Origin: Nanobdellota archaeon
GTDB lineage: Archaea > Nanobdellota > Nanobdellia > SCGC-AAA011-G17 > ARS1403
Direction: 5' to 3'
Assembly: GCA_002688395.1 (NCBI GenBank)
Contig: NZCU01000014.1
Coordinates: 1 to 34,226 of the forward strand
Length of the DNA: 34,226 nt
The position numbers and the translations under genes are program-made. The stretch's first letter is position 1. Each line of letters opens with the position of its first letter. The notes beneath the pieces were generated by a model. It saw only the letters and a program-made list of their open reading frames with translations. It was not told where the DNA came from and ran no database searches. This document shows, in pieces, positions 6,309 through 33,873 of this stretch.

Positions 6309-7111
6309 TGGAGCTTTTTAAGAAGAGTTTTAGTTTGTTAATTAATAATAAACAAAAAGTTTTTACTAGTGTAGGTGTTGATTTTATATTTTATATTTTA
6401 GTTTTGTTATCTGGATTTTATTTTTTTAATAAATTTTCTGAAAAGTTTGAAATAATAAATAATAATATTAGTAGTGTTGTTTTGGCTGATGAAGAACTTT
6501 CACAAGGAGCTTTACTTAAATTAAATGCTGTCTCTACTGCTTTGACAGATATGTTGTTAATTGTTATTGGTTATTTTATTTTAGTTTTAATTTTATGGGG
6601 GATCTTTAATGGTGCTGTTTGGTTAATATGTAAAAATATTATTAAAAATAAGAAACCTTTTGATGGTTTTGATATAACTTTTTTATCAAGATATTATATA
6701 TTAAGTTTATTTTGGTTTTTGATAACTGGAATTCTTTTCTTTTCTTTTTATAATTATAATTCTTATGTTTTATCTTTGGGAAATATTGGAATTTTAATTG
6801 TTAATTTACCAATTTTATTAATATTATATTTTGGAACTATTTCTTTTTCTTTGTTTTTTGTAAATGGAAAAACTATTAAATCTTTTACGAATTGTTTTAA
6901 ATTAGGATTAAGTAAAGTTTCTTTTTTAATTGCTTTTGTTTTATTTATTTTAATATTTTATTTTTCTGAATTTATTTTATTATCTTTAGGGAAGTTAATA
7001 AATTCTAATGTTTTTTCTATTTTAGGTATTATTGCTTTCTTGTTAATTATGGTTTGGTTTAGAGTTTATTTATTATTACTTGTAGAAAAATATGCGGGAG
7101 ACAGGATTTGA
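6308..7111 (+). CDS. Polytopic integral membrane protein (about 6-7 TM), unknown function
   Basis: I prefer the ATG at 6308, which overlaps the upstream TAA (TAATG), over the track start at 6284. The sequence is very hydrophobic and Phe/Leu/Ile-rich. The last 18 nt, including the TGA, lie inside the convergent tRNA-Leu. Confidence 0.6.
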   Translation: MELFKKSFSLLINNKQKVFTSVGVDFIFYILVLLSGFYFFNKFSEKFEIINNNISSVVLADEELSQGALLKLNAVSTALTDMLLIVIGYFILVLILWGIFNGAVWLICKNIIKNKKPFDGFDITFLSRYYILSLFWFLITGILFFSFYNYNSYVLSLGNIGILIVNLPILLILYFGTISFSLFFVNGKTIKSFTNCFKLGLSKVSFLIAFVLFILIFYFSEFILLSLGKLINSNVFSILGIIAFLLIMVWFRVYLLLLVEKYAGDRI

Positions 7112-7218
7112 ACCTGCGTAGGCACTAAGCCATCAGGTGTCTTACAGAAACGTCCTAAGCTTAGTCTTCTAAAATACAATTTTAGAATCTGACCCGTTTT
7201 CCGCTCCGGCACTCCCGC
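7093..7218 (-). tRNA. tRNA-Leu(UAG), class II (long variable arm), with two introns
   Basis: Minus strand: acceptor GCGGGAG/CTCCCGC, T-arm GCAGG-TTCAAAT-CCTGT, 15-nt variable region with a GGC/GCC stem, discriminator A. Removing 7161-7188 (28 nt, position 30/31) and 7139-7153 (15 nt, canonical 37/38) gives a perfect anticodon stem UCAGG/CCUGA and loop CUUAGGA. The canonical intron folds as helix / 3-nt bulge GGA / 4-bp CUUA:UAAG / 3-nt bulge ACA. Confidence 0.8.
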
Positions 7219-7284: not shown

Positions 7285-7548
7285 ATGGGTGCTTTAACAG
7301 AGATATTGGAGTTGTTAATAGGTTTTATTGTTCTTCCTAGGATTGTTCTTTTTGGTTGGATACTATTTGCTGCTTATTTTAATTTAAGCAGTCTTCTAAT
7401 AACTCTTGTAGCCCAAATTTTGATTCTTTTTGTCCTTGCACGTCTTTTCTTTAATTTTAGAAGACTTATTGCTTATGGATTGATAATTGCAGGATTGGGG
7501 AGTGTAGTAGATTTTTTAATTAGTCTCCTTGGATTTAGTTTAGTTTAA
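7285..7548 (+). CDS. Small membrane protein (about 3 TM), unknown function
   Basis: 87-aa hydrophobic ORF. A TATA-like TTTTTATAT lies about 30 nt upstream, in a promoter region shared divergently with tRNA-Leu. Confidence 0.45.
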   Translation: MGALTEILELLIGFIVLPRIVLFGWILFAAYFNLSSLLITLVAQILILFVLARLFFNFRRLIAYGLIIAGLGSVVDFLISLLGFSLV

Positions 7549-9910: not shown

Positions 9911-10013
9911 TTCTATTTGCATACGAAGTCAAGGTTTAAAATATAAGCTTTTAGAAACCTTTATATACTAGTATATTCGAAGATTTATAAAGCTTATGTT
10001 GGGGGTAAGTCTT

Positions 10014-10928
10014 ATGGCAGCAAATGTTAAAAAATGTCCAGAGTGTAGTGGCATAAATCTAATTTTGAATAAGGATAGAGGAGAAATTATTTGTAAAGAC
10101 TGTGGACTAGTAGTTGAAGAGAAAATGGTCGATTTTGGTCAAGAATGGAGAGAATTTGACAGTGATCAAGCTGCTTCTAGAAGAAGAACTGGAGCTCCTA
10201 TGACTTATACTAAATATGATAGAGGTTTAGGTACTGATGTGGGTAGAAAATCAGATATTTACCAATTAGGTGGAAAAGATAGAAATAGATTTTTTAGATT
10301 AAGAAAATGGCAATATAGGATTAGTACTGCTATTGAGAGAAATTTAAAGTTAGCTTTAGCTGAGTTGAAGAGAGTTAGTAGTTATTTAAAATTAACAAAG
10401 GCTGTTGAAGAAGAAAGTGCTAGAATTTATACTTTAGCTGTTCAAAGAGGGTTAGTTAGGGGTAGATCAATGGAAAGTGTTGTTTCTGGTGCGCTTTACG
10501 CTGCATGTAGAAGACATGAAGTGCCTAGAACTTTAGATGAATTATCAGAGGCAAGTGGAATAGATAAGAAAGAAATTGGAAGAACTTATAGATTTGTTAC
10601 AAGAGAATTAGGAATTAGAATATTACCAAGTAATCCTGTTGATTATATTGCTAGATTTGCAACTTCTTTAAAATTAAGTGCTGATACACAAACTAAAGCT
10701 GTTGAAATTTTAGAAAAAGCACAGAATAGTGAATTGACAAGTGGTAGAGGTCCTACTGGGATTGCTGCTGCTAGTTTATATGTTGCTGCTTTGATTAATA
10801 ATGAGAAAAGAACTCAAAGAGAAGTAGCTGATGTTGCTGGTGTTACAGAAGTAACTATAAGAAATAGATATAAAGAGCTAATTAAAAAATTAAAGTTAGA
10901 CGATAAGGTTAAGAAAAAAAGAAGATAG
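10014..10928 (+). CDS. tfb: Transcription initiation factor B (TFB/TFIIB)
   Basis: N-terminal zinc ribbon CPECSG...CKDCG, a B-reader/linker, and two cyclin-like repeats (RGRSMESVVSGALYAACR; GRGPTGIAAASLYVAA). An upstream in-frame ATG at 9996 is an alternative start. TAG stop. Confidence 0.92.
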   Translation: MAANVKKCPECSGINLILNKDRGEIICKDCGLVVEEKMVDFGQEWREFDSDQAASRRRTGAPMTYTKYDRGLGTDVGRKSDIYQLGGKDRNRFFRLRKWQYRISTAIERNLKLALAELKRVSSYLKLTKAVEEESARIYTLAVQRGLVRGRSMESVVSGALYAACRRHEVPRTLDELSEASGIDKKEIGRTYRFVTRELGIRILPSNPVDYIARFATSLKLSADTQTKAVEILEKAQNSELTSGRGPTGIAAASLYVAALINNEKRTQREVADVAGVTEVTIRNRYKELIKKLKLDDKVKKKRR

Positions 10929-10929
10929 G

Positions 10930-11202
10930 ATGAGTATTTATCAATTAGAAAGAGATTTGGCTGAATTTATTTTACCTCCTAAAGTGGAAGATTTAGATTT
11001 TGAGGAAGTTGCATCTTATAGTGATGAGTTATTTGAAGCATTACAAAGAGGATGGATTGGTTTGAAGAAATTTTATGAGGATAAAAGAAATTTGTATGGA
11101 GATGAAACTATAATGAGATTAGATGGTTTTAGTAATGATGATTGGGGTTTGTATAAAATGCTTTTAACTCCAGAAATAACAGAAGATCTTATTTTACCTT
11201 AG
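10930..11202 (+). CDS. Small acidic hypothetical protein
   Basis: 90-aa ORF starting 1 nt after the tfb stop. I recognise no motif. TAG stop. Confidence 0.4.
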   Translation: MSIYQLERDLAEFILPPKVEDLDFEEVASYSDELFEALQRGWIGLKKFYEDKRNLYGDETIMRLDGFSNDDWGLYKMLLTPEITEDLILP

Positions 11203-12089: not shown

Positions 12090-12141
12090 AATATATATTA
12101 AATTGATAAGATTTTTAAATACTTTTGTTTAGTTATTGGAT

Positions 12142-12699
12142 ATGGTTAAAAAGAAAGAAGATATTATTGAACTTAAGAAGAAGATAGTTGGAGTGCTAGA
12201 AAAAGAGAGGGTTGTTGGAGATGTAAGTAATGAAAGTACTTTAATTTATGATAAAAGTAGATTTGGAGAGAGAGTTGGAGAGAAATTTCAGTATTCTTTA
12301 GTTGAAGGTTTGTTTTTATTAGATACTAAAAGAATGAATATTAAAGATGGAAGGGGTAAAAAGGTTAAATTTGATGATTTTTTAAAAAAAGCTAGGAGAT
12401 TTGATAAGAATTTTTGGGTTAAATACTGTGTTTTTAAAGATATGAGAAGTAGGGGTTATGTTGTTAAAACTGCTTTGAAGTTTGGAGCTGAATTTAGGGT
12501 TTATGGAAGGGGTATTAAACCTGGAGATGATCATGCTAAGTGGATTGTTTATCCTGTTCATGAATCTAATACAACTACTTGGTCTGAATTTGCTGCTAAA
12601 AATAGAGTAGCTCATAGTACTAGGAAAAGATTGCTCGTTGGTGTGGTTGATGATGAAGCAGAAGTATCTTATTGGGAGATATCTTGGATAAGGCCCTGA
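12142..12699 (+). CDS. endA: tRNA-splicing endonuclease (short, alpha-type subunit)
   Basis: The C-terminal catalytic domain is RGYVVKTALKFGAEFRVY...HAKWIVYPV. ATG at 12142, with TTG at 12136 as an alternative. Confidence 0.85.
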   Translation: MVKKKEDIIELKKKIVGVLEKERVVGDVSNESTLIYDKSRFGERVGEKFQYSLVEGLFLLDTKRMNIKDGRGKKVKFDDFLKKARRFDKNFWVKYCVFKDMRSRGYVVKTALKFGAEFRVYGRGIKPGDDHAKWIVYPVHESNTTTWSEFAAKNRVAHSTRKRLLVGVVDDEAEVSYWEISWIRP

Positions 12700-13802
12700 T
12701 TGACACTCCAGATAATTTTATTTTTGTATCCATTTTTTTGGATTATTCCTTCTTTTTCTAATTTGTTTAGATGTCTTATGGCTCCTCCATGTGTGAAAAG
12801 TAAACTATTAGCTATCTCTAACGTTTTTGAAGGTTTGTCCTTTAATATCTTTAAAATTTCTTTCTTTAATAAAATAGGATTTCTTGTTCTTTCTTTTCTA
12901 TTCCTAATTTTTATTTTGTACTCCATACTTAATTTTTTATGAGGACATTCAATAGGAATTGTATTGTGGAAATTTTCAAGACTTCTAGATGAAAGTGGTA
13001 GTGAGACTTTATCCTTTTTGTATCCATATTTGAAAATAACAATCTTATTAGTTTTAATATCTAAGTTTTCTAATAATTCTTTAACTTGTTTAATTAAATT
13101 TAAATTATGAATTGTTAGGTTTGGTTCTTTAGAAAAAGATCCGTCATCATCGAACAAAGCTCCAGTAAATGACGATTTACATTCTTTTGAGGATGAAAAT
13201 ATTAATTTTGGGATTCTATTTGGGTGCGTAATCTGAAAATCAAATAAATGTTGAATTATGTCTGAAATTGCTTTTGGAAATTCAATAATTGATGTGGTTT
13301 TCGTTTTTATTTCTCTAGTTCTAAAGTTGCCGAAAAGAGATAATTTTTCTATGAATTTTTCCCTTAGAGTTTTATCAGAATTCGCATAATATGGAGGATG
13401 ACTTTTTGCTTGACAGCCGTCTGCAATCATATGACCAATTATGGAATATAGCTTTGGAGTTTCTTTTAATGGCAGTTTTAGTTTTTTAATTTCCAAACCT
13501 GCTCTTACGCTAATTGCTAAAATATTCTTTTCTAGTTTGAACTTATTTTTGGAATCTATAATTTTTTTTAATAATTTTAATGGAATCGATTGAGAGTATT
13601 TAATCTTGTATTTTATACTAAATCCTCTTTCATAGTTTAGCAACGTTCTCAAATTAATATTTAGATATTTGGCAGTTTTTCTTTTGCTACCAAATTTTTC
13701 ATATAATTGATTAAATAATTTCTTTCTAAAGTTATCTTTTATCTTAACATATATTGTTTCTGGAAAATCTAAAATATCCCACTCCTTCAGTTTTCTTGAC
13801 AT
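12669..13802 (-). CDS. LAGLIDADG homing-endonuclease-like protein flanked by N- and C-terminal HTH/wHTH domains
   Basis: LAGLIDADG-type motifs are YSIIGHMIADGCQ and FTGALFDDDGSF. N-terminal HTH is KRKTAKYLNINLRTLLNYERG; C-terminal wHTH is GGAIRHLNKLEKEGIIQKNG. The 3' end overlaps the endA 3' end by 31 nt. Confidence 0.75.
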   Translation of the reverse strand: MSRKLKEWDILDFPETIYVKIKDNFRKKLFNQLYEKFGSKRKTAKYLNINLRTLLNYERGFSIKYKIKYSQSIPLKLLKKIIDSKNKFKLEKNILAISVRAGLEIKKLKLPLKETPKLYSIIGHMIADGCQAKSHPPYYANSDKTLREKFIEKLSLFGNFRTREIKTKTTSIIEFPKAISDIIQHLFDFQITHPNRIPKLIFSSSKECKSSFTGALFDDDGSFSKEPNLTIHNLNLIKQVKELLENLDIKTNKIVIFKYGYKKDKVSLPLSSRSLENFHNTIPIECPHKKLSMEYKIKIRNRKERTRNPILLKKEILKILKDKPSKTLEIANSLLFTHGGAIRHLNKLEKEGIIQKNGYKNKIIWSVNQGLIQDISQ

Positions 13803-13952: not shown

Positions 13953-14873
13953 ATGGTGGATGTTGATCGTAGAGATAAAATATTAGAGTTTGTAAGAAAA
14001 GAAGGAGCTGTTTTACCTATTAAGATTTCTAAAGAATTTAATATAGATACTATGTTTTCAGGCGCGATGTTATCAGAGCTTGTTAATAGTGGTAAAATTA
14101 AAGTTACTGAGCATTTAAAGGTTGGAGGAACTCCTGTTTATTATGTTGAAGGTATGGAAGCTAAATTAGAGGATTATACTAAATTTCTTAATGAGAAGGA
14201 TATTAGGACTATTGCTTTTTTGAAAGATAAAGGGATAGTTGAAGATAAAGGGTTAAGTCCTTTGCAGAGAGTTTCTTATAGGATTGTTAAAGATTTTGCT
14301 AAGAGTATTGTGTTAAAAAGAGATGATGGGAGTAAAGAGGTTTTTTGGAGATATTTTTTAGTTGATGAGGAAGCTGCTAAAGAAAAAATATTAGATTTGA
14401 TTAATAATAAAAAGGAAGATGTTAAGGTTAAAGTTGAGAAACAGGCATCTTTAGAAGAACCTGCTTTAGAAGAGGAAGTTCACGAAGAAAAAGAGCTTCC
14501 TGAGGAAAAACCTTTAGAGGAGCCTTTACAAAGAGAGGTCCCTGAGAGAATTGAGGTTAAGAAAAAACCTATTGGAGATGTTGTTAAAGAATTTTTTAGA
14601 GTTAATGGTATTACTGTTTGGGAAGAGAAGGTTATAAGGAAAGGAAAAGATGTTAATTACCTTGTAAGTTTTGATTCTAGAGTTGGGAAAGTTAGGTATT
14701 TTGCTAAATATAGAGATAAGAAAAGAATAAGTGAAGGAGATGTGAGTTTGGCTTATAATGAAGCTGGTAAATTGCCTTTATTGTTTCTAAGTAAAGGAGA
14801 GTTAACTAAACCTGCTAAGAGAATTATAGAAGAAGAATTTAAAGGTGTGATATTTAAGAGATTAAGTAGATGA
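13953..14873 (+). CDS. Hypothetical protein: N-terminal wHTH-like domain, acidic linker, basic C-terminal domain
   Basis: The N-terminal KILEFVRKEGAVLPIKISKEFNIDTMFSGAMLSELVNSGKIKV is wHTH-like. An E/P/K-rich linker follows. I could not assign a family. Confidence 0.45.
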   Translation: MVDVDRRDKILEFVRKEGAVLPIKISKEFNIDTMFSGAMLSELVNSGKIKVTEHLKVGGTPVYYVEGMEAKLEDYTKFLNEKDIRTIAFLKDKGIVEDKGLSPLQRVSYRIVKDFAKSIVLKRDDGSKEVFWRYFLVDEEAAKEKILDLINNKKEDVKVKVEKQASLEEPALEEEVHEEKELPEEKPLEEPLQREVPERIEVKKKPIGDVVKEFFRVNGITVWEEKVIRKGKDVNYLVSFDSRVGKVRYFAKYRDKKRISEGDVSLAYNEAGKLPLLFLSKGELTKPAKRIIEEEFKGVIFKRLSR

Positions 14874-15913
14874 TAAAAATAATTGATTGTGGAAGCCAAT
14901 TAACTCAGAATATTGCTAGGAGAGTTAGAGAGTTGGGTGTTTTTACAGAGATTGTTCCTTTTAATACATCTTATGAAAATGTTGTTGAGCAAGATACAGA
15001 TGGACTTATAATTTCTGGAGGTCAATTTAGTGTACATGATGATACTGCACCTATGTATACAAAAAAATTCTTAGAAGCTAGTATTCCCATACTTGGAATT
15101 TGTTATGGGCTTCAATCAATTTCTCATTTATTAGGTGGGAAAGTGATATCTACAAAAAATAGAGAATATGGAGAGACAAAGATTAAGATATTAAAGAAAA
15201 ATCTTCTATTTAAAGATATTAATTCTGAAGAATTTACTGTATGGATGAGTCATGGAGATATATTAGAAGAAGTTCCTTCTGGTTTTGAGGTTCTTGCAAA
15301 ATCATGGAATAATCATATAGCCTCAATACAAAGAGATAATATTTATGCTGTACAGTTTCATCCTGAAGTTGACCACACTGAACATGGAAGAAAGATACTT
15401 GATAATTTTTTAGAAATTTGTAAGTCAAAAAGGACTTGGGATCCTGAAAAAGAGTATAATTTTATTCTTAATAAAACTAGAGAAAAAATAGAAGGGAAAA
15501 TTGGTGTTGGTGGTATAAGTGGAGGTGTTGATTCAACAACAGTATCTGTTCTACTTGATAGAATAGCTGGAGAAAATTATCATCCAATTTTTATTGATAA
15601 TGGGTTATTAAGATTGAATGAGATAAATGAAGTAAAAAATAATCTTAGTTCTCTCGGCCTTAGAGTGCATTATGTTGATGCTAGTGAGAGATTTCTTTTA
15701 AAATTAAAGGGAGTTATTGATTCGGACGAAAAGAGGAAGATTATTGGTCATGAATTTATTAGAGTATTTGAGGAGGAAGCTAGGAAAATTCCAGGAGCTT
15801 CTTATTTAGTTCAAGGGACGCTTTATCCTGATGTTATTGAAAGTGTACCAATTTATAGTGCTTCTTCTATGATAAAAAGACATCATAATGTTGAGGATTG
15901 CCCAAAGATATGA
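14870..15913 (+). CDS. guaA: GMP synthase (glutamine-hydrolysing), part 1: GATase domain plus N-terminal part of the ATP pyrophosphatase domain
   Basis: GATase catalytic region PILGICYGLQ and HPEV; PP-loop SGGVDSTT. It ends ...HHNVEDCPKI where the family has HHNVGGLP, so the frame is lost at about 15893. Confidence 0.85.
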   Translation: MIKIIDCGSQLTQNIARRVRELGVFTEIVPFNTSYENVVEQDTDGLIISGGQFSVHDDTAPMYTKKFLEASIPILGICYGLQSISHLLGGKVISTKNREYGETKIKILKKNLLFKDINSEEFTVWMSHGDILEEVPSGFEVLAKSWNNHIASIQRDNIYAVQFHPEVDHTEHGRKILDNFLEICKSKRTWDPEKEYNFILNKTREKIEGKIGVGGISGGVDSTTVSVLLDRIAGENYHPIFIDNGLLRLNEINEVKNNLSSLGLRVHYVDASERFLLKLKGVIDSDEKRKIIGHEFIRVFEEEARKIPGASYLVQGTLYPDVIESVPIYSASSMIKRHHNVEDCPKI

Positions 15914-16389
15914 ATTTAGAAGTTGTTGAACCATTTAAGCATATGTTTAAGGATGAGGTGAGAAAGATAGCTGAAAATAAACTTAATATGTCTAGAGCTG
16001 TTGTTTGGAGACATCCCTTTCCTGGACCGGGATTGGCTATACGTATTAAGGGAGAAGTAGATAAAGAAAAATTAGAGATTGTGAGACAAGCTGATGCTAT
16101 TTTTCTTGATGAACTTAAAAGAAGAGGGTTATATTATGATATTAGCCAAGCATTTGTGGGATTAAATGATGTTCAATCAGTTGGAGTTATGGGAGATGAA
16201 GGTACTTATGAAGGAGAGATTAGATTGAGAGCAGTTGTTACAAAGGATTTTATGACTTCTGATATATATCATTTTAAATGGGAGGATTTACAAGCAATTT
16301 CTAATAGAATTGTAAATGAAGTTAGGGGTGTTAATCGTGTTTTTTATGATACAACTCAAAAACCTCCGGGAACGATAGAATGGGAATAG
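15898..16389 (+). CDS. guaA: GMP synthase, part 2: C-terminal/dimerisation region, in the -1 frame relative to part 1
   Basis: The frame reads (G)LPKDMNLEVVEPF...RHPFPGPGLAIRI...PPGTIEWE, the canonical GuaA C-terminus. It ends with tandem stops TAG TAA. Confidence 0.85.
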   Translation: MPKDMNLEVVEPFKHMFKDEVRKIAENKLNMSRAVVWRHPFPGPGLAIRIKGEVDKEKLEIVRQADAIFLDELKRRGLYYDISQAFVGLNDVQSVGVMGDEGTYEGEIRLRAVVTKDFMTSDIYHFKWEDLQAISNRIVNEVRGVNRVFYDTTQKPPGTIEWE

Positions 16390-16684: not shown

Positions 16685-17380
16685 ATGTATTGTTTGACTG
16701 ATTCTCAAAAAGTAGATTTGGCTTATTTAATTGGGGCTGTTATTGGTGATGGATCTTATATGAACACTAAGAGTGGAAAAAGACGAAATATTAGATTTTC
16801 TTTCGGTTCTTCTGATAGGGAGTTTGTCGTTATTATAAAGGACATTATTAGAGACATTTTTTCCCTTGAATTAAACATATGTGTTGAAAGATTATCTCTA
16901 AAAAATAATGCATGGAGAGACCATTATAAAATAAGGAGTAGAATATTGCACAGACATCTTAAAAAATATCTTCCTGATAAGAATAAAATACCTAGTTTTG
17001 TCTATAATTCAAACCACTTTATTAAAAGTAGTTTTATTTCTGGATTTTTTGATGCTGAAGGAGGAATTTGTGTTAGTACTATAAAATCCAGAAATGTTTT
17101 AGATAGGAGATTGTATTGTCATAATTTCAATATTGATTTATTGAATGAAATTAAAGGATACTTATCTGAATTAGATATTGATTGTTTTATACAGAATAGT
17201 AAGAGAGCTTATGCTTTAAATATTTGGGGTTATAAAAATTTGGTTAATTTTAAAAATAAAATTGACTTTAGAATTTATAGAAAGAGATTTAAACTATTAG
17301 GTGCTATAAATAGTTATAAATTTGTTCACAAAAAATACAGACATTTGAAAGTTGATGTTCAAAACTTAGGAGGGATTTAA
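16685..17380 (+). CDS. LAGLIDADG homing endonuclease (compact two-motif form)
   Basis: Classic motifs are present: LAYLIGAVIGDGSY and FISGFFDAEGGI. Confidence 0.85.
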   Translation: MYCLTDSQKVDLAYLIGAVIGDGSYMNTKSGKRRNIRFSFGSSDREFVVIIKDIIRDIFSLELNICVERLSLKNNAWRDHYKIRSRILHRHLKKYLPDKNKIPSFVYNSNHFIKSSFISGFFDAEGGICVSTIKSRNVLDRRLYCHNFNIDLLNEIKGYLSELDIDCFIQNSKRAYALNIWGYKNLVNFKNKIDFRIYRKRFKLLGAINSYKFVHKKYRHLKVDVQNLGGI

Positions 17381-17381
17381 A

Positions 17382-17483
17382 ATGAGCGACGATATAGAAA
17401 AAGAGTCAGTAAAGATAACAGATACAAAAAATAGTGATAACCATACTGTGTTTGTAGGCCCCAAACCTTTTAACAGAATTTAG
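17382..17483 (+). other. Alba N-terminal fragment ORF ending at an in-frame TAG
   Basis: MSDDIEKESVKITDTKNSDNHTVFVGPKPFNRI then stop. HTVFVGPKP matches the Alba beta1 consensus (v-IGkKP). It is in the same frame as 17505-17750. Confidence 0.6.
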
Positions 17484-17504
17484 CGAAATGCTATTTCTGG
17501 AAGA

Positions 17505-17750
17505 GTGAATTATGTTACAGGGGTCGTGATGCAGTTTACAACACAAGGTGCTAATGAAGTTGTTGTTAAAGCTAGGGGTAGATTTATTTCTAGAGCTGTA
17601 GATATTGTTGAGGTTGCCACTAAGAGATTTTTAGAGGGACAAATAGAAATAGCTAAAGATGGAATTAATATTGGAAGTGAGGAATTTGAAAATAAAGAAG
17701 GAAAACAAGTTAGAGTGAGTTTTATAGAATTAAGTCTTATCAAACGATAA
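17505..17750 (+). CDS. albA: Alba (Sac10b-family) DNA/RNA-binding protein, main body
   Basis: NYVTGVVMQF...EVVVKARGRFISRAVDIVEVATKRF is the Alba core. GTG at 17505 is the only nearby start, and the canonical N-terminal strand is encoded upstream of an in-frame TAG. Confidence 0.8.
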   Translation: MNYVTGVVMQFTTQGANEVVVKARGRFISRAVDIVEVATKRFLEGQIEIAKDGINIGSEEFENKEGKQVRVSFIELSLIKR

Positions 17751-19592: not shown

Positions 19593-20538
19593 ATGAAAAT
19601 TGATTTAATGAAGTATATTCCAAATAAAATCATTCCAAAACAAGGAAACTTGAAAGAATTCTCTATAAGTGAGCATAATAGTAATTTGTTGTTGTTTTAT
19701 AAAGGTTGTAGAAAGAAAATATTATTACCTAGGTTTGTTAATTTAAGTGAGGAGGATTTTGTTGCAATTGGTCTTTATCTAGCAGAAGGTCAAAAGTATG
19801 TTAATCTTGATAAGAAGTATCATCACTCTGGTGAGATAGATTTTTCTAATAGTGAGTTAATTTCTTTAGAACTGTTTTGTAAATTTATAAAAAAATTAAA
19901 TATATCTTCTAAGGAGTTTAGATGGGAAATTGTTTTAAATGTAAAAAGGAAATTTATAGATAAATCTTTGTTATTGAATTATTGGGTAGAAAATCTAAAC
20001 TTAGATTTTGAGAAAAGACGTCCTAAGAGTGTACGTTATAGCGGATCTTTATTTACAAATCCAAAAACTGTTAGTTAGTGATTATGGATGTATTCATTTG
20101 AAATATAGTTCTGTAATCTTTCGTAATTTTTTCTTGAATTTTGTATTTGAAATTTTTAATGATTTTTTGAAAATTAAGCATAAAAATATACTAGGATTAA
20201 TTCTGAAAGGTTATTTTGCAGGAGATGGAAATGTAACTTTTAATTTAAAGCCTAGAAGAAAGGCTGTTTATTTTTGCTCTAATGATATTAAATTATTTTC
20301 TATGCTAAAAGAAGCCCTTAAGACAATAGGAGTAAGCTCTATTAAAGAAACTTATCCTGAATATACTAGAACTCACACTAAGAGTTTAGTTTTTTATAAT
20401 TTTAAGGATTTTCAGTTGTTGGATGATTATGCTATTGCAGATACTGTTCCTTACAAAAGGAAGAAGTTTGAAAAACTTTTAAAGAGTTATAAATTATTGC
20501 CTCGAGCCGGATTTGAACCGGCGATCACTAGCTCATGA
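19593..20538 (+). pseudogene. LAGLIDADG homing-endonuclease-like gene disrupted by a 4-bp tandem duplication; paralog of 7665-9041
   Basis: Motifs are AIGLYLAEGQKY and LILKGYFAGDGNV. GTTAGTTAG at 20070-20078 contains GTTA twice; deleting one copy joins the two track ORFs into ...NPKTVSDYGCIHLKY.... The 3' end reads 41 nt into tRNA-Met. Confidence 0.75.
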
Positions 20539-20571
20539 AACTAGGGTTCTGCCAGACTAAACTATCGAGGC
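20498..20571 (-). tRNA. tRNA with CAU anticodon (elongator Met, or Ile2 if C34 is modified)
   Basis: The minus strand gives a full cloverleaf: acceptor GCCTCGA/TCGAGGC, D-stem GTTT/GAAC, anticodon stem CTAGT/GCTAG, loop TTCATGA, T-arm GCCGG-TTCAAAT-CCGGC, discriminator A. It lacks initiator features (no A1:U72, no GGG/CCC in the anticodon stem). Confidence 0.9.
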
Positions 20572-30655: not shown

Positions 30656-31707
30656 ATGGAAAAGACAATAATAGCATCTGTAATAAACTTAACAAAAAAT
30701 AAAAAAACATTGTTAGATAATGATTATAACAATTATCAATGGTGGATGTTATTTAGTATAGATAAAGGTTTATTAAGTGCATTTAAAGCAGCAAAAGGTT
30801 ACAAACAAAAAATAATCAAATATAAGGAATACCCTTTACCATTACAATCAAGATTTATTAAAGAATGGTTTAGGATTAGAGATACTAAGATAACTAAACA
30901 TTGGATTAAGATACCTAATAGTAAAAGAAAAGGTGTTGGTTTATGGCTTCCATTAAGATTCCACCAACAACTACCGGAATATTATACATTAAAAGATTCT
31001 TATTTAGTAAAAAAGAATAAAAGTACTATATTCATTTTTGTGTTAATATAAGAGAACCTAAATTGTACAAATCAAGAACCATAATAGGAATAGATTTGGG
31101 ATTAAAAAACCCAGTTACGTTAACAAATATGAAAACAAATAAAACATTATATTTAGGTAAGGAATTAAAACAAATAAGAGGAAAATATTTCTACTTAAGA
31201 AAAAAATTAGGAAAAGAAAAAAAGTTGAAACAAATAATAAAAATTAAGAACAAAGAAAAGAGAAAGATTAACACATTATTACACACAGTTTCAAAGGAAA
31301 TAATAATAAATGCTTATCAAAATAAATCAACAATAGTTATTGGGAAATTAAAGAATTTCAAGAAAAATAAAGGAAGAAAGTTTAATAGAAAAATATCATC
31401 ATTCTCTTATTATAAACTTACACAATATCTAGAATACAAAGCAAGAGAAAAAGGAATTCCATTCATTAAAGTTTCAGAGTTTAATACATCTAAAACTTGT
31501 AGTGTCTGTGGCACTATAGGGAAAAGAGATAAAAATTGGTTTAAATGTACTTGTGGATATGAAGATAATGCGGATAGAAATGCAAGTATAAATATTGCAA
31601 AACGAGGTTTAAGTCAAGAACTTAAATTAGGGGTAGTTGCTTCTACCCAGAAATCTCTCAATGAAGAGATAAGCACTAAAAGTGTGCAATCTTGTGTGAT
31701 TGCTTAA
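30656..31707 (+). mobile_element. tnpB: IS200/IS605-family TnpB (OrfB, RuvC-like nuclease), frameshifted; no TnpA present
   Basis: RuvC-I IIGIDLGLKN, zinc ribbon CSVCG...CTCG, RuvC-III NADRNASINIAKRG. The two track ORFs join if one A is restored in AATAAAAG (31016-31023), giving ...VKKNKKYYIHFCVNIRE.... Confidence 0.8.
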
Positions 31708-33060: not shown

Positions 33061-33873
33061 ATGAACAGAAATAAATATCAGAGATTATATGAAGAGGAAA
33101 AGAATTTGATTAAGAATTTAACTTTGAAAGGAAATAGTTTGAGACAGATTTCTGAGATAACGGATCTTGGAATAACTACTATATACTATCAAGTGAGAAA
33201 ATTTAAACCCAAACAGAAAAAGGATTTTGTTTGTAATTTAAGTGATTTTCAAATAGGAGAATTAATTGGATCTTTTGCAGGGGATGGAAACTTTTACTAT
33301 TCCTCTCATGGTAGGAGTGGTCACTATAGGATTAGATACTATCTTTCGTATAAAGATGACATGGATTATTCTAAGTATTTATCCCATCTATTAGAAATGA
33401 TGAACTTACGCACCAATACTTTTTTTAAGAAGTATAAAGGAAAATTAAGTGTAATTGAATTGGTTGTTAGATCTAAAGATTTTTATAAATTTATAAGGAA
33501 GTATCTCATTTGGGAAGGCAAAAAAACTTATTCTGTAAGATTGAAATCTTACATTAATGGATATAGCGATGATTTCTTGAGAGGCTTTGTTAGAGGTCTT
33601 ATGGATACGGATGGATTTGTGGAAATATCTGGCGTTGCTTTTGGTGTTGTTTCTAGAGATCTTGTTTTAAATTTTGAGGCTATTCTAAGCAAGTTTAATA
33701 TTGGATCTAAATTATCAATCAAACCTGGGAAAGGAAATTGTAAGGACTGTTACCTATGTCGTATTCCTAGAAGATATTTGGAATTGTATAATGAAATTTT
33801 TGGATTTAGTAACTTAAGAAAAATTAACTCTTTAATGAAAATATTAAGTAAAACTGGGACTGCGCGGATTTGA
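33061..33873 (+). CDS. LAGLIDADG homing endonuclease with N-terminal HTH
   Basis: HTH is LRQISEITDLGITTIYYQVRK. LAGLIDADG-type motifs are IGELIGSFAGDGNF and FLRGFVRGLMDTDGFV. The last 19 nt lie inside tRNA-Pro. Confidence 0.8.
   Translation: MNRNKYQRLYEEEKNLIKNLTLKGNSLRQISEITDLGITTIYYQVRKFKPKQKKDFVCNLSDFQIGELIGSFAGDGNFYYSSHGRSGHYRIRYYLSYKDDMDYSKYLSHLLEMMNLRTNTFFKKYKGKLSVIELVVRSKDFYKFIRKYLIWEGKKTYSVRLKSYINGYSDDFLRGFVRGLMDTDGFVEISGVAFGVVSRDLVLNFEAILSKFNIGSKLSIKPGKGNCKDCYLCRIPRRYLELYNEIFGFSNLRKINSLMKILSKTGTARI

What the first reader, a model, noticed from the sequence alone, without database searches (positions are those of the whole stretch)
17382..17750. Alba gene interrupted by an in-frame TAG inside an 11-codon, hairpin-forming insertion
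ATG at 17382 opens a frame encoding ...NHTVFVGPKPF, the conserved Alba beta1 strand. The same frame continues after TAG (17481-17483) into NYVTGVVMQF...KARGRFISRAVD, the rest of Alba. Relative to the family consensus (IGkKPvMNYV), about 33 nt are extra (NRI-stop-RNAISGR). That extra segment plus a few flanking bases (17467-17505) folds into a 14-bp imperfect hairpin: CTTTT/AAGAG, CAGAA/TTCTG, TAGC/GCTA, loop GAAAT. The TAG sits in the upper stem. Options are a small excised RNA element, stop-codon readthrough or recoding, a genuinely split or N-terminally truncated Alba starting at GTG 17505, or a miniature insertion that inactivated the gene. Alba is normally an abundant core chromatin/RNA-binding protein. 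The gene sits directly downstream of a LAGLIDADG insertion.
Basis: partly seen in the sequence, partly recalled or inferred. Interest (0 to 1): 0.7.

Follow-up and report, generated by a model that had tools for sequence, protein, structure and literature searches.

The report
tRNA-type intron inside an Alba gene
The 33 extra bases that break this archaeal Alba chromatin-protein gene are very probably a small intron of the kind normally found in tRNAs, cut out of the mRNA by the tRNA-splicing enzyme; similar introns sit at the same spot in Alba genes of more than 100 related uncultured archaea, and the papers searched here name only one other archaeal protein gene (cbf5) with such an intron in its coding region.

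Summary
Compared with every relative, the window's Alba gene carries exactly 33 extra bases containing an in-frame TAG. The precise insert is 17473-17505. Removing it joins A17472 to T17506-G17507, recreating the conserved Met codon and the family consensus KPFMNYV.

The insert folds as a relaxed bulge-helix-bulge (BHB) motif. The standard cleavage rule, a cut after the second base of each bulge, predicts exactly these borders.

A degenerate DNA pattern scan found similar 27-35-nt inserts at the same site:
- 107 of 109 metagenome contigs that matched the scan (plus two with a candidate pair of introns)
- 40 species-representative Woesearchaeota, Nanoarchaeota and Pacearchaeota genomes, including a single-cell genome

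Evidence that these are spliced introns:
- 78 of 103 unique inserts are not a multiple of 3 long.
- 102 of 103 carry an in-frame stop.
- Removing them restores an intact Alba reading frame.
- Both helices covary, including against the wobble base of the Pro codon.

The window also encodes the splicing endonuclease EndA and a tRNA-Leu with two BHB introns.

Verdict: an endonuclease-spliced pre-mRNA intron, a new member of a kind the papers searched here record only for crenarchaeal cbf5. No RNA data were available. A possible link to the adjacent LAGLIDADG homing endonuclease is suggestive only.

The parts
17382..17472 (+). Alba exon 1: Met1 to the first base (A) of the codon for Met31
   Evidence: In the 19 codons before the insert, all 7 codon differences from relative L001 are synonymous.
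17473..17505 (+). Predicted BHB-type pre-mRNA intron, 33 nt: ACAGAAUUUAGCGAAAUGCUAUUUCUGGAAGAG
   Evidence: It is absent from the closest relative. Its removal restores ATG and KPFMNYV. It is homologous to the class A inserts in 35 metagenome loci. Only one copy occurs in the window.
17506..17750 (+). Alba exon 2 (UG of the Met codon through the TAA stop)
   Evidence: Pfam Alba, E=1.3e-12. The spliced ORF is 111 aa.
17467..17470 (+). Central 4-bp helix H, 5' strand (CUUU, in exon 1); pairs with 17500-17503
   Evidence: This helix is 98% paired in 27 homologues. The second pair covaries with the Pro-codon wobble base (UA 18, GC 6, CG 3).
17471..17473 (+). 5' bulge U-A|A; predicted 5' cleavage after A17472
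   Evidence: The geometry was derived. The rule that cleavage falls between the 2nd and 3rd bulge residues is from PMC2738675.
17474..17478 (+). Inner helix h', 5' strand (CAGAA); pairs with 17495-17499 (UUCUG)
   Evidence: All 5 pairs show double compensatory changes.
17481..17493 (+). Apical stem UAGC/GCUA with loop GAAAU. The UAG at 17481-17483 is the in-frame stop.
   Evidence: A stop lies in frame in 102 of 103 unique introns, against 43-52% in the other two frames and 56% in shuffled introns.
17495..17499 (+). Inner helix h', 3' strand (UUCUG)
17500..17503 (+). Central helix H, 3' strand (GAAG, in the intron), directly next to h'
17504..17506 (+). 3' bulge A-G|U; predicted 3' cleavage after G17505. 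On the outer side it is closed only by the single pair C17466-G17507.
12136..12699 (+). tRNA-splicing endonuclease EndA (187 aa), the enzyme proposed to cut the intron
   Evidence: Pfam tRNA_int_endo N- and C-terminal domains. The best solved relatives are the N. equitans alpha subunit (3iey_A, 4.7e-34) and M. jannaschii 1a79.
7093..7218 (-). tRNA-Leu(UAG) gene with two BHB introns: 7161-7188 (28 nt, position 30/31, relaxed motif) and 7139-7153 (15 nt, position 37/38, canonical). It shows that this organism splices relaxed motifs.
16685..17380 (+). Free-standing LAGLIDADG homing-endonuclease ORF inserted between rpS17e and Alba. It may be functionally linked to the intron, but this is not established.

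Best explanation
The 33 nt at 17473-17505 are an archaeal bulge-helix-bulge (BHB) intron inside the Alba pre-mRNA.

Proposed structure. Four exon bases (CUUU 17467-70) pair with four intron bases (GAAG 17500-03) to form the central helix. A 3-nt bulge (U-A|A) separates this helix from an inner hairpin (CAGAA/UUCUG plus UAGC/GCUA). A second 3-nt stretch (A-G|U) follows the helix on the other strand.

Proposed mechanism. The tRNA-splicing endonuclease EndA, encoded 5 kb upstream in the same window, cuts after the second base of each bulge. An RNA ligase then joins A17472 to U17506; RtcB is the usual archaeal enzyme, but it was not seen in this window. The join recreates the AUG codon and yields a normal 111-aa Alba. 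The UAG in the intron's apical stem lies in frame, so a ribosome on an unspliced transcript stops after 33 codons instead of making an Alba with a disrupted beta1 strand.

What is shown: the borders, the fold, its covariation, its wide conservation, intact exons, the presence of EndA, and relaxed tRNA introns in the same organism.

What is inferred: that cleavage and ligation actually occur, and that EndA is the enzyme.
For: 1. The insert is clean and unique. Relatives read CCTTTYA|TGAATTATGT, and only the borders 17473/17505 recreate ATG.
2. The published BHB cleavage rule (PMC2738675) predicts those same borders. Only 99 of 200,000 shuffles of the intron give a 4/4 central helix plus an inner helix of 5 bp or more at the required positions.
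3. A degenerate pattern scan found 109 metagenome contigs and 43 species-representative genomes, 40 of them genuine, with inserts at this site. Across all 147 intron-bearing loci the inserts are 27-35 nt long. There are two main positions, 4 nt apart: class A like the window, and class B after ATGAA.
4. 78 of 103 unique inserts are not a multiple of 3 long. Removing the predicted intron gives an intact Alba ORF in nearly all of the 131 loci not cut by a contig end (125 are 96-131 aa; five longer calls are upstream run-ons), making 95 unique proteins.
5. Covariation, class A: 97.1% of cells are paired against 74.5% when shuffled and 35-46% when slid, and 10 of 14 pairs show double changes. RNAalifold predicts the same register on its own.
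6. Covariation, class B: 85.5% paired against 59.2%, and all 6 inner-helix pairs covary.
7. Exon 1 is under purifying selection: 7 synonymous and 0 non-synonymous codon differences from L001.
8. EndA is encoded in the window with its catalytic Tyr, His and Lys. tRNA-Leu(UAG) in the window needs removal of a non-canonical 30/31 intron with the same relaxed architecture.
9. The inserts occur in independent assemblies and in a single-cell genome (SCGC AAA011-G17), so this is not an assembly error.
Against: - There is no RNA evidence. Ten spliced protein sequences were absent from the 15-billion-protein collection.
- The motif is relaxed. The outer helix is a single C-G pair, and its bases are fixed by coding anyway.
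- The class B central helix is only 79% paired.
- BHB-like geometry on its own is common by chance in this AT-rich DNA: about 1,370 loose hits in the window against about 740 in shuffles. The motif is diagnostic only together with the borders and the covariation.
- The window's EndA has the length of the strict alpha4 type. It lacks the short insertions seen in the N. equitans alpha subunit. The (alpha-beta)2 and epsilon2 enzymes are the ones reported to cut relaxed motifs efficiently (PMC6379350, PMC5829648).
- In the window the BHB conformer (-9.2 kcal/mol) is about 2 kcal/mol less stable than the minimum-energy register.
Confidence: 0.85

Rival explanations
1. The insert is removed from the RNA, or tolerated, by some mechanism other than EndA plus ligase: another RNase, self-cleavage, or an unknown DPANN-specific splicing activity. 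On this view the BHB-like fold is a structural feature of that other process.
For: The motif lacks a proper outer helix, and the class B central helix is imperfect. The window's EndA shows none of the loops linked to broad specificity (PMC5829648). No RNA or enzymatic data exist.
Against: The borders required by the coding sequence coincide with the EndA cleavage rule in both intron classes, which differ in sequence and phase. The same relaxed architecture occurs in a tRNA intron of the same window, which must be spliced to make tRNA-Leu. Rfam reports no ribozyme in the region.
Confidence: 0.06
2. The insert is a disabling insertion, and this Alba copy is a pseudogene. Alternatively the gene is expressed only as an N-terminally truncated Alba starting at GTG 17505 or ATG 17529, as the public annotation has it.
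For: The deposited annotation calls only a 73-aa fragment (P0053). The window holds other broken genes, including guaA with a 1-nt frameshift, a frameshifted LAGLIDADG ORF and a split TnpB.
Against: The insert is kept in more than 100 lineages with compensatory changes. The exons on both sides stay intact and conserved. Exon 1 shows only synonymous differences. Class B inserts leave no start codon at the junction. No intronless allele encoding the identical protein was found for the ten spliced proteins looked up.
Confidence: 0.04
3. Translational recoding: either the TAG is read through (amber suppression or pyrrolysine), so the 11 extra codons form a loop, or the ribosome hops over the segment as in phage T4 gene 60.
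For: With its intron option, ARAGORN calls a 'tRNA-Pyl(cta)' at 7093-7218. The window's insert is a multiple of 3 long, and its stop lies in a hairpin, as at the gene 60 take-off site.
Against: That tRNA call needs a U.U mismatch and a 26-nt variable arm. Removing two BHB introns instead gives a perfect tRNA-Leu(UAG). TAG terminates other genes in the window, for example 9996-10928, 10930-11202 and 15898-16389. 78 of 103 homologous inserts shift the frame, and they use TAA, TGA or TAG. No matching take-off and landing codons flank the segment, and a hop cannot create the Met codon, whose A and UG are 33 nt apart.
Confidence: 0.02
4. Assembly or sequencing artefact, or a miniature transposable element caught in one MAG.
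For: The window is a metagenome-assembled contig with at least one apparent 1-nt error or mutation.
Against: Related inserts occur in assemblies from many projects and in a single-cell genome. There is only one copy in the window. The 103 unique introns have no credible copies elsewhere in 1.06 Mb of related DNA. No target-site duplication flanks the insert.
Confidence: 0.01

Closest known systems
cbf5 pre-mRNA intron of Crenarchaeota (Watanabe 2002; Yoshinari 2006; Yokobori 2009, PMC2738675)
   Same: It is a short (16-44 bp) intron inside a protein-coding gene and has no ORF of its own. It has a relaxed BHB-like fold, with the borders predicted by cleavage between the 2nd and 3rd bulge residues. 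It lies in a highly conserved codon stretch and shows patchy gain and loss among relatives.
   Different: The host gene is Alba rather than the pseudouridine synthase Cbf5, and the lineage is DPANN (Woesearchaeota, Nanoarchaeota, Pacearchaeota) rather than Desulfurococcales or Sulfolobales. The endonuclease looks like a single alpha-type subunit rather than the crenarchaeal heterotetramer. There are two insertion sites 4 nt apart, and in two contigs (L007/L086) a second, class B-like insert appears to follow the class A intron. An in-frame stop is nearly universal. Splicing of cbf5 was shown with cDNA; here it is only inferred.
BHB introns of archaeal tRNAs and rRNAs, including non-canonical relaxed (HBh') tRNA introns
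   Same: The geometry is the same: a 4-bp helix, a 3-nt bulge, an adjoining inner helix, and cuts after the second bulge base. The same window holds a tRNA-Leu with one canonical and one relaxed intron.
   Different: The substrate is an mRNA, so no tRNA body can help recognition. Splicing here decides the reading frame rather than an RNA fold.
BHB intron in the 5' UTR of Haloferax volcanii HVO_1309 mRNA (PMC7714728)
   Same: It is an mRNA that the splicing endonuclease processes.
   Different: That intron is in the untranslated leader, whereas this one interrupts a codon.
HAC1/XBP1 unconventional mRNA splicing in eukaryotes (from my own knowledge of the field; not read here)
   Same: A protein endonuclease cuts the mRNA at paired stem-loops and a tRNA ligase (RtcB in animals) rejoins it, changing what the mRNA encodes.
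   Different: The nuclease there is IRE1, not EndA, and the process is stress-regulated. There is no evidence of regulation here.
[quoted passage not shown] 2009)
   Same: A free-standing homing-endonuclease gene lies directly beside a conserved gene whose small, ORF-less intron interrupts a highly conserved stretch.
   Different: That intron is a self-splicing group I intron in a phage, and the endonuclease's target was shown by experiment. Here the target of the LAGLIDADG protein is unknown, and the statistical link is weak (p = 0.034).

Membership tests
Archaeal BHB (endonuclease-spliced) intron | A central 4-bp helix with a 3-nt bulge on its 3' side on the 5' strand, followed directly by an inner helix that stacks on the central helix on the opposite strand | tested here: met
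   CUUU/GAAG, bulge UAA, and CAGAA/UUCUG directly next to GAAG. RNAalifold predicts this register from 27 sequences.
Archaeal BHB (endonuclease-spliced) intron | Strict hBHBh' form: the second 3-nt bulge is closed by an outer helix of at least 2 bp | tested here: not met
   Only C17466-G17507 pairs, and class B has no outer pair. The motif is therefore the relaxed HBh' type, which is still within the family as described in PMC6379350 and PMC5829648.
Archaeal BHB (endonuclease-spliced) intron | Cleavage after the second residue of each bulge gives a functional exon junction | tested here: met
   The predicted cuts after 17472 and 17505 are the only borders that recreate ATG and KPFMNYV. The same geometry fits nearly all of the 147 related loci.
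Archaeal BHB (endonuclease-spliced) intron | The helices are maintained by compensatory changes among homologues | tested here: met
Archaeal BHB (endonuclease-spliced) intron | The organism encodes the splicing endonuclease EndA | tested here: met
   Window 12136-12699.
Archaeal BHB (endonuclease-spliced) intron | The organism encodes an RtcB-type ligase, and spliced RNA or a circular intron is detectable | not testable with these tools
   No RtcB was seen among the window ORFs that were scanned. No transcript data were available, and the look-up of spliced proteins was negative.
cbf5-type crenarchaeal pre-mRNA intron | Located in the catalytic-Asp codon of cbf5 in Desulfurococcales or Sulfolobales | tested here: not met
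   The host gene is Alba in Nanoarchaeota/Woesearchaeota MAGs. It works like the cbf5 intron but is not a member of that family.
Alba (PF01918) | A significant Pfam match and a full-length fold-forming sequence including beta1 (IGxKPxMNYV) | tested here: met
   Exon 2 scores E=1.3e-12. The spliced product aligns end to end with relatives and is 84% identical to P0001.
Amber (UAG) recoding / pyrrolysine | A genuine tRNA(CUA), with UAG not used as a terminator | tested here: not met
   The 'tRNA-Pyl' call resolves to tRNA-Leu(UAG). UAG ends several genes.
Programmed translational bypassing (T4 gene 60 type) | Matching take-off and landing codons flank the gap | tested here: not met
   The codons flanking the segment do not match, and the Met codon is split by the insert.
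Collaborative homing (free-standing homing endonuclease plus protective intron) | The homing-endonuclease gene lies next to the intron-bearing gene more often than next to intronless alleles | tested here: inconclusive
   20 of 86 unique intron-bearing loci against 0 of 14 intronless controls; Fisher one-sided p=0.034, not corrected for relatedness.
Collaborative homing (free-standing homing endonuclease plus protective intron) | The endonuclease cleaves the intronless allele at or near the intron insertion site, and the intron blocks cleavage | not testable with these tools
   This needs a cleavage assay.

The most novel reading that the evidence does not exclude
The mini-intron and the neighbouring free-standing LAGLIDADG gene may form a 'collaborative homing' pair. 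The endonuclease would recognise the extremely conserved Alba stretch AARCCNTTYATGAAYTAYGT in intronless genomes. The BHB intron, at any of several positions within 7 nt, would break that site and protect the carrier genome. Repair of the cut would copy the endonuclease gene and the intron together into new genomes. This would explain three things: why an ORF-less BHB intron spreads and turns over among close relatives, why two insertion sites can appear to coexist, and why about a fifth of intron-bearing loci still carry the endonuclease gene. It would be the first mobility mechanism proposed for an archaeal pre-mRNA intron.
Probability: 0.2. Interest if true: 0.85.

Novelty: new member of a known kind. 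Interest (0 to 1): 0.75.

Why it matters
- In the papers held here, endonuclease-spliced introns inside archaeal protein-coding sequence rest on one case, cbf5 in Crenarchaeota, first reported in 2002. A 2020 paper (PMC7714728) still cites it as the only one besides a 5'-UTR example. A second family, in a different gene and superphylum and present in dozens of species, would show that mRNA splicing by the tRNA machinery is not a one-off.
- It gives more than 100 natural sequence variants for working out what a DPANN endonuclease will accept as a substrate.
- Gene callers currently truncate these Alba genes. The deposited record annotates only a 73-aa fragment, so the core chromatin protein is mis-annotated in these genomes.
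- The near-universal in-frame stop suggests selection against translating unspliced mRNA.
- The recurrent LAGLIDADG neighbour points to a testable route by which such introns could spread.

Tried and rejected
- Amber suppression. ARAGORN in intron mode reports a tRNA-Pyl(cta) at 7093-7218. It was rejected because removing two BHB introns gives a perfect tRNA-Leu(UAG).
- Using the BHB motif alone as a detector. A loose scan gives about 1,370 hits in the window against about 740 in shuffled sequence, so it is uninformative without borders and covariation.
- Looking for spliced products. Ten spliced Alba proteins were looked up by exact sequence in the 15-billion-protein collection and none was found. 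This is neither support nor refutation.
- Looking for other copies of the insert. There are none in the window at up to 3 mismatches. In 1.06 Mb of related loci there were only 4 marginal 16-20-nt hits. The MITE idea is rejected.
- Looking for mini-introns in other genes. A tblastn search for split matches, using 250 ORFs against all fetched loci, recovered only Alba. Sensitivity was low.
- The guaA break at about 15893. It was considered as a second intron and rejected, because a base is missing rather than added.
- Rfam. Nothing but tRNAs was found in the window.
- Literature. Searches for Alba with intron or BHB found no report.
- The endonuclease-intron association. Only 14 independent intronless controls could be obtained, so the test is underpowered.
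- Twin-intron loci L007/L086. The second intron deviates by one base from strict geometry, and I could not resolve why.

Full report
**1. The observation**

The window is a 29% G+C contig from a marine Nanoarchaeota (DPANN) metagenome-assembled genome. Its own deposited Alba annotation is a 73-aa fragment (P0053).

The frame opened by ATG 17382 encodes ...NHTVFVGPKPF and then NRI, and stops at TAG 17481-83. The same frame continues as VNYVTGVVMQF..., which Pfam identifies as Alba.

An alignment with 21 relatives shows exactly 11 extra codons between the nearly invariant KPF and MNYV. At the DNA level the closest intact relative is L001, at 84% protein identity and with the same gene order. It reads CCTTTCA-TGAATTATGT where the window reads CCTTTTA-[33 nt]-TGAATTATGT.

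The insert is therefore 17473-17505. It splits the Met codon after its first base, and deleting it gives a 111-aa protein with the exact consensus KPFMNYV.

In the 19 codons before the insert, all seven codon differences between the window and L001 are synonymous. Exon 1 is therefore still under selection as coding sequence.

**2. The fold**

A register about 2 kcal/mol higher has the anatomy of a bulge-helix-bulge motif:
- The central helix is CUUU (17467-70) paired with GAAG (17500-03).
- A 3-nt bulge, U-A|A, follows it.
- The inner helix CAGAA/UUCUG abuts GAAG.
- The apical stem is UAGC/GCUA.
- The stretch A-G|U follows the central helix on the 3' strand.

The published rule places cleavage between the second and third bulge residues (PMC2738675). 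It therefore puts the cuts after 17472 and 17505, which are the only borders that restore the Met codon.

Shuffling the intron reproduces a 4/4 central helix plus an inner helix of at least 5 bp at those fixed positions in 99 of 200,000 trials.

The motif alone is not diagnostic. Loose BHB geometry is abundant by chance in this AT-rich DNA.

**3. Related sequences**

A truncated homologue (P0039) led to a second marine contig, L005. There a different 32-nt insert sits 4 nt downstream (ATGAA|...|TTATGTT) and shifts the frame.

I then scanned for Alba genes with 22-52 nt between the Phe and Tyr codons, where 6 nt are expected. The scan returned 109 metagenome contigs and 43 species-representative genomes.

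After inspection:
- 107 of the 109 metagenome hits (apart from the candidate twin-intron pair L007/L086) and 40 of the 43 genome hits carry inserts that can be removed to restore KPFMNYV.
- Five of those metagenome hits (L038, L056 and L068, plus L007 and L086) are not single inserts of this kind: three are chance matches in intronless genes and two are a candidate twin-intron pair.
- The genomes are labelled Woesearchaeota, Nanoarchaeota, Nanoarchaeia or Pacearchaeota, and include the single-cell genome SCGC AAA011-G17.
- In the metagenome set, class A (35 loci plus the window) lies between the A and TG of the Met codon, and class B (67 loci) lies after ATGAA.
- A few inserts sit one base to either side of these positions.
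- Two contigs (L007 and L086) appear to carry both introns, separated by the 4-nt micro-exon UGAA.

Among the 103 unique introns:
- Lengths are 27-35 nt.
- 78 are not a multiple of 3 long.
- 102 contain a stop in the upstream reading frame, against 43% and 52% in the other two frames and 56% in shuffled introns.

Because the two classes differ in codon phase yet both place the stop in frame, the stop looks selected. Removing the predicted intron yields an intact Alba ORF in nearly all of the 131 loci not cut by a contig end (125 are 96-131 aa; five longer calls are upstream run-ons), giving 95 unique proteins.

**4. Covariation**

| Measure | Class A (27 distinct sequences) | Class B (49 sequences) |
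|---|---|---|
| Cells paired in the BHB structure | 97.1% | 85.5% |
| Cells paired when partners are shuffled | 74.5% | 59.2% |
| Cells paired when partners are slid | 35-46% | 31-42% |
| Pairs with changes on both sides | 10 of 14 | all 6 inner-helix pairs |

In class A, the exon base at the Pro-codon wobble position pairs with an intron base and covaries with it (UA 18, GC 6, CG 3). RNAalifold, given only the alignment, returns the same BHB register.

In class B, the central helix is weaker, at 79% paired. One of its positions pairs in only about half of the sequences.

**5. The machinery in the same window**

ORF 12136-12699 is a tRNA-splicing endonuclease with both Pfam domains. It is closest to the N. 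equitans catalytic subunit and to the M. jannaschii enzyme, and it has the catalytic Tyr, His and Lys. It lacks the short insertions present in the N. equitans protein, so its specificity cannot be read from the sequence.

Rfam finds a 126-nt tRNA at 7093-7218. In intron mode ARAGORN calls it tRNA-Pyl(cta). Removing a 28-nt intron at position 30/31 (relaxed motif, no outer helix) and a 15-nt intron at 37/38 (canonical motif) instead yields a perfect tRNA-Leu(UAG).

This organism must therefore splice a relaxed motif with the same architecture as the Alba insert. There is also no amber suppressor, and TAG terminates several other genes.

**6. Rivals**

- Readthrough and hopping fail on the frame-shifting lengths, the variety of stop codons, and the split Met codon.
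- A pseudogene or a truncated Alba fails on conservation, covariation and exon integrity.
- An artefact or a MITE fails on independent assemblies and the absence of other copies.
- Still open: the cutting enzyme might not be EndA, and no RNA evidence could be obtained.

**7. What is known**

The papers found describe BHB introns in tRNA, rRNA, the cbf5 mRNA of Crenarchaeota, and the 5' UTR of one Haloferax mRNA. As late as 2020, cbf5 was cited as the only further example (PMC7714728; PMC2738675; PMC5829648; PMC6379350).

Searches combining Alba with intron or BHB terms found nothing relevant, and Rfam has no family for the element. The library holds only open-access papers, so an earlier report cannot be excluded.

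I file the element as a new member of a known kind. It works like the cbf5 intron but has a new host gene, a new lineage, two insertion sites and a conserved in-frame stop.

**8. The LAGLIDADG neighbour**

The ORF 16685-17380 fills the rpS17e-Alba spacer. That spacer is 60 nt in L001 and 762 nt here.

Among 120 intron-bearing loci with rpS17e upstream, the spacer length is bimodal: 91 are 5-393 nt and 29 are 609-1069 nt. Of the long spacers, 25 encode a LAGLIDADG protein on the same strand.

Counting unique introns gives 20 of 86 with the endonuclease gene, against 0 of 14 independent intronless loci. Fisher's one-sided p is 0.034, not corrected for relatedness.

Intron state is labile on an Alba tree. 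The window's nearest neighbours are class B or intronless. This fits, but does not prove, a collaborative-homing arrangement like the F-CphI/psbA case (PMC6083498).

A caution: the window holds four LAGLIDADG ORFs in 34 kb, so adjacency could simply reflect their density.

**9. Verdict**

The finding is real and is best explained as an endonuclease-spliced BHB intron in Alba pre-mRNA (confidence 0.85). It is one instance of a family that is widespread in DPANN archaea and, as far as I could find, undescribed. Direct RNA evidence is the missing step.

Noticed in passing
window 7093-7218 (-); introns at 7161-7188 and 7139-7153: Default ARAGORN misses this tRNA gene, and in intron mode calls it tRNA-Pyl(cta). 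It is a tRNA-Leu(UAG) with two BHB introns: 28 nt at position 30/31 (relaxed) and 15 nt at 37/38 (canonical).
   Followed up: yes
window 14870-16389, break near 15893: The GMP synthase gene (guaA) is split into two ORFs by what looks like a 1-nt deletion: GTTG-AGGATTG where GTT GGA GGA TTG (HHNVGGLP) is expected. This could be a mutation, a sequencing error or a pseudogene. guaA is absent at this position in the syntenic relative L001.
   Followed up: partly
window 12669-13802 (-), 16685-17380 (+), 19593-20538 (+), 33061-33873 (+): There are four free-standing LAGLIDADG endonuclease ORFs in 34 kb, each beside a highly conserved gene (EndA, Alba, tRNA-Met, tRNA-Pro). The third is frameshifted and overlaps tRNA-Met (20498-20571).
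   Followed up: partly
L007 (about 7380-7500, - strand) and L086: These Alba genes appear to carry both a class A and a class B-like intron, separated by a 4-nt micro-exon (UGAA). The second intron is one base off the strict BHB geometry, and it contains a copy of the exon sequence AAACCTTTT.
   Followed up: partly
all 103 unique Alba introns; window 17481-17483: An in-frame stop codon occurs in 99% of the introns. It usually lies on the 5' side of the apical stem: UAG at +8 in class A, and UAA or UAG at +7 in class B. The two classes differ in codon phase, yet the stop stays in frame.
   Followed up: yes
L001 10406-11509; L002-L004 at the equivalent position: In the closest relatives, which have no Alba intron, an HNH/NUMOD3 endonuclease ORF lies directly downstream of Alba, between Alba and the Na+/H+ exchanger gene. 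Both flanks of Alba therefore attract homing endonucleases.
   Followed up: no
L121 and L092: The upstream LAGLIDADG ORF runs in frame into the Alba start with no intervening stop codon.
   Followed up: no
window 30656-31051 and 31063-31707: A TnpB / IS605 OrfB-like gene (Cas12f1-like TNB domain) is split into two ORFs and is probably degenerate.
   Followed up: no
class A introns (33 unique): The last intron base is G or T in 31 of 33. Together with the exon's TG, the unspliced RNA therefore reads GTG or TTG at the junction, which are possible alternative start codons. No convincing ribosome-binding site precedes it in the window.
   Followed up: no
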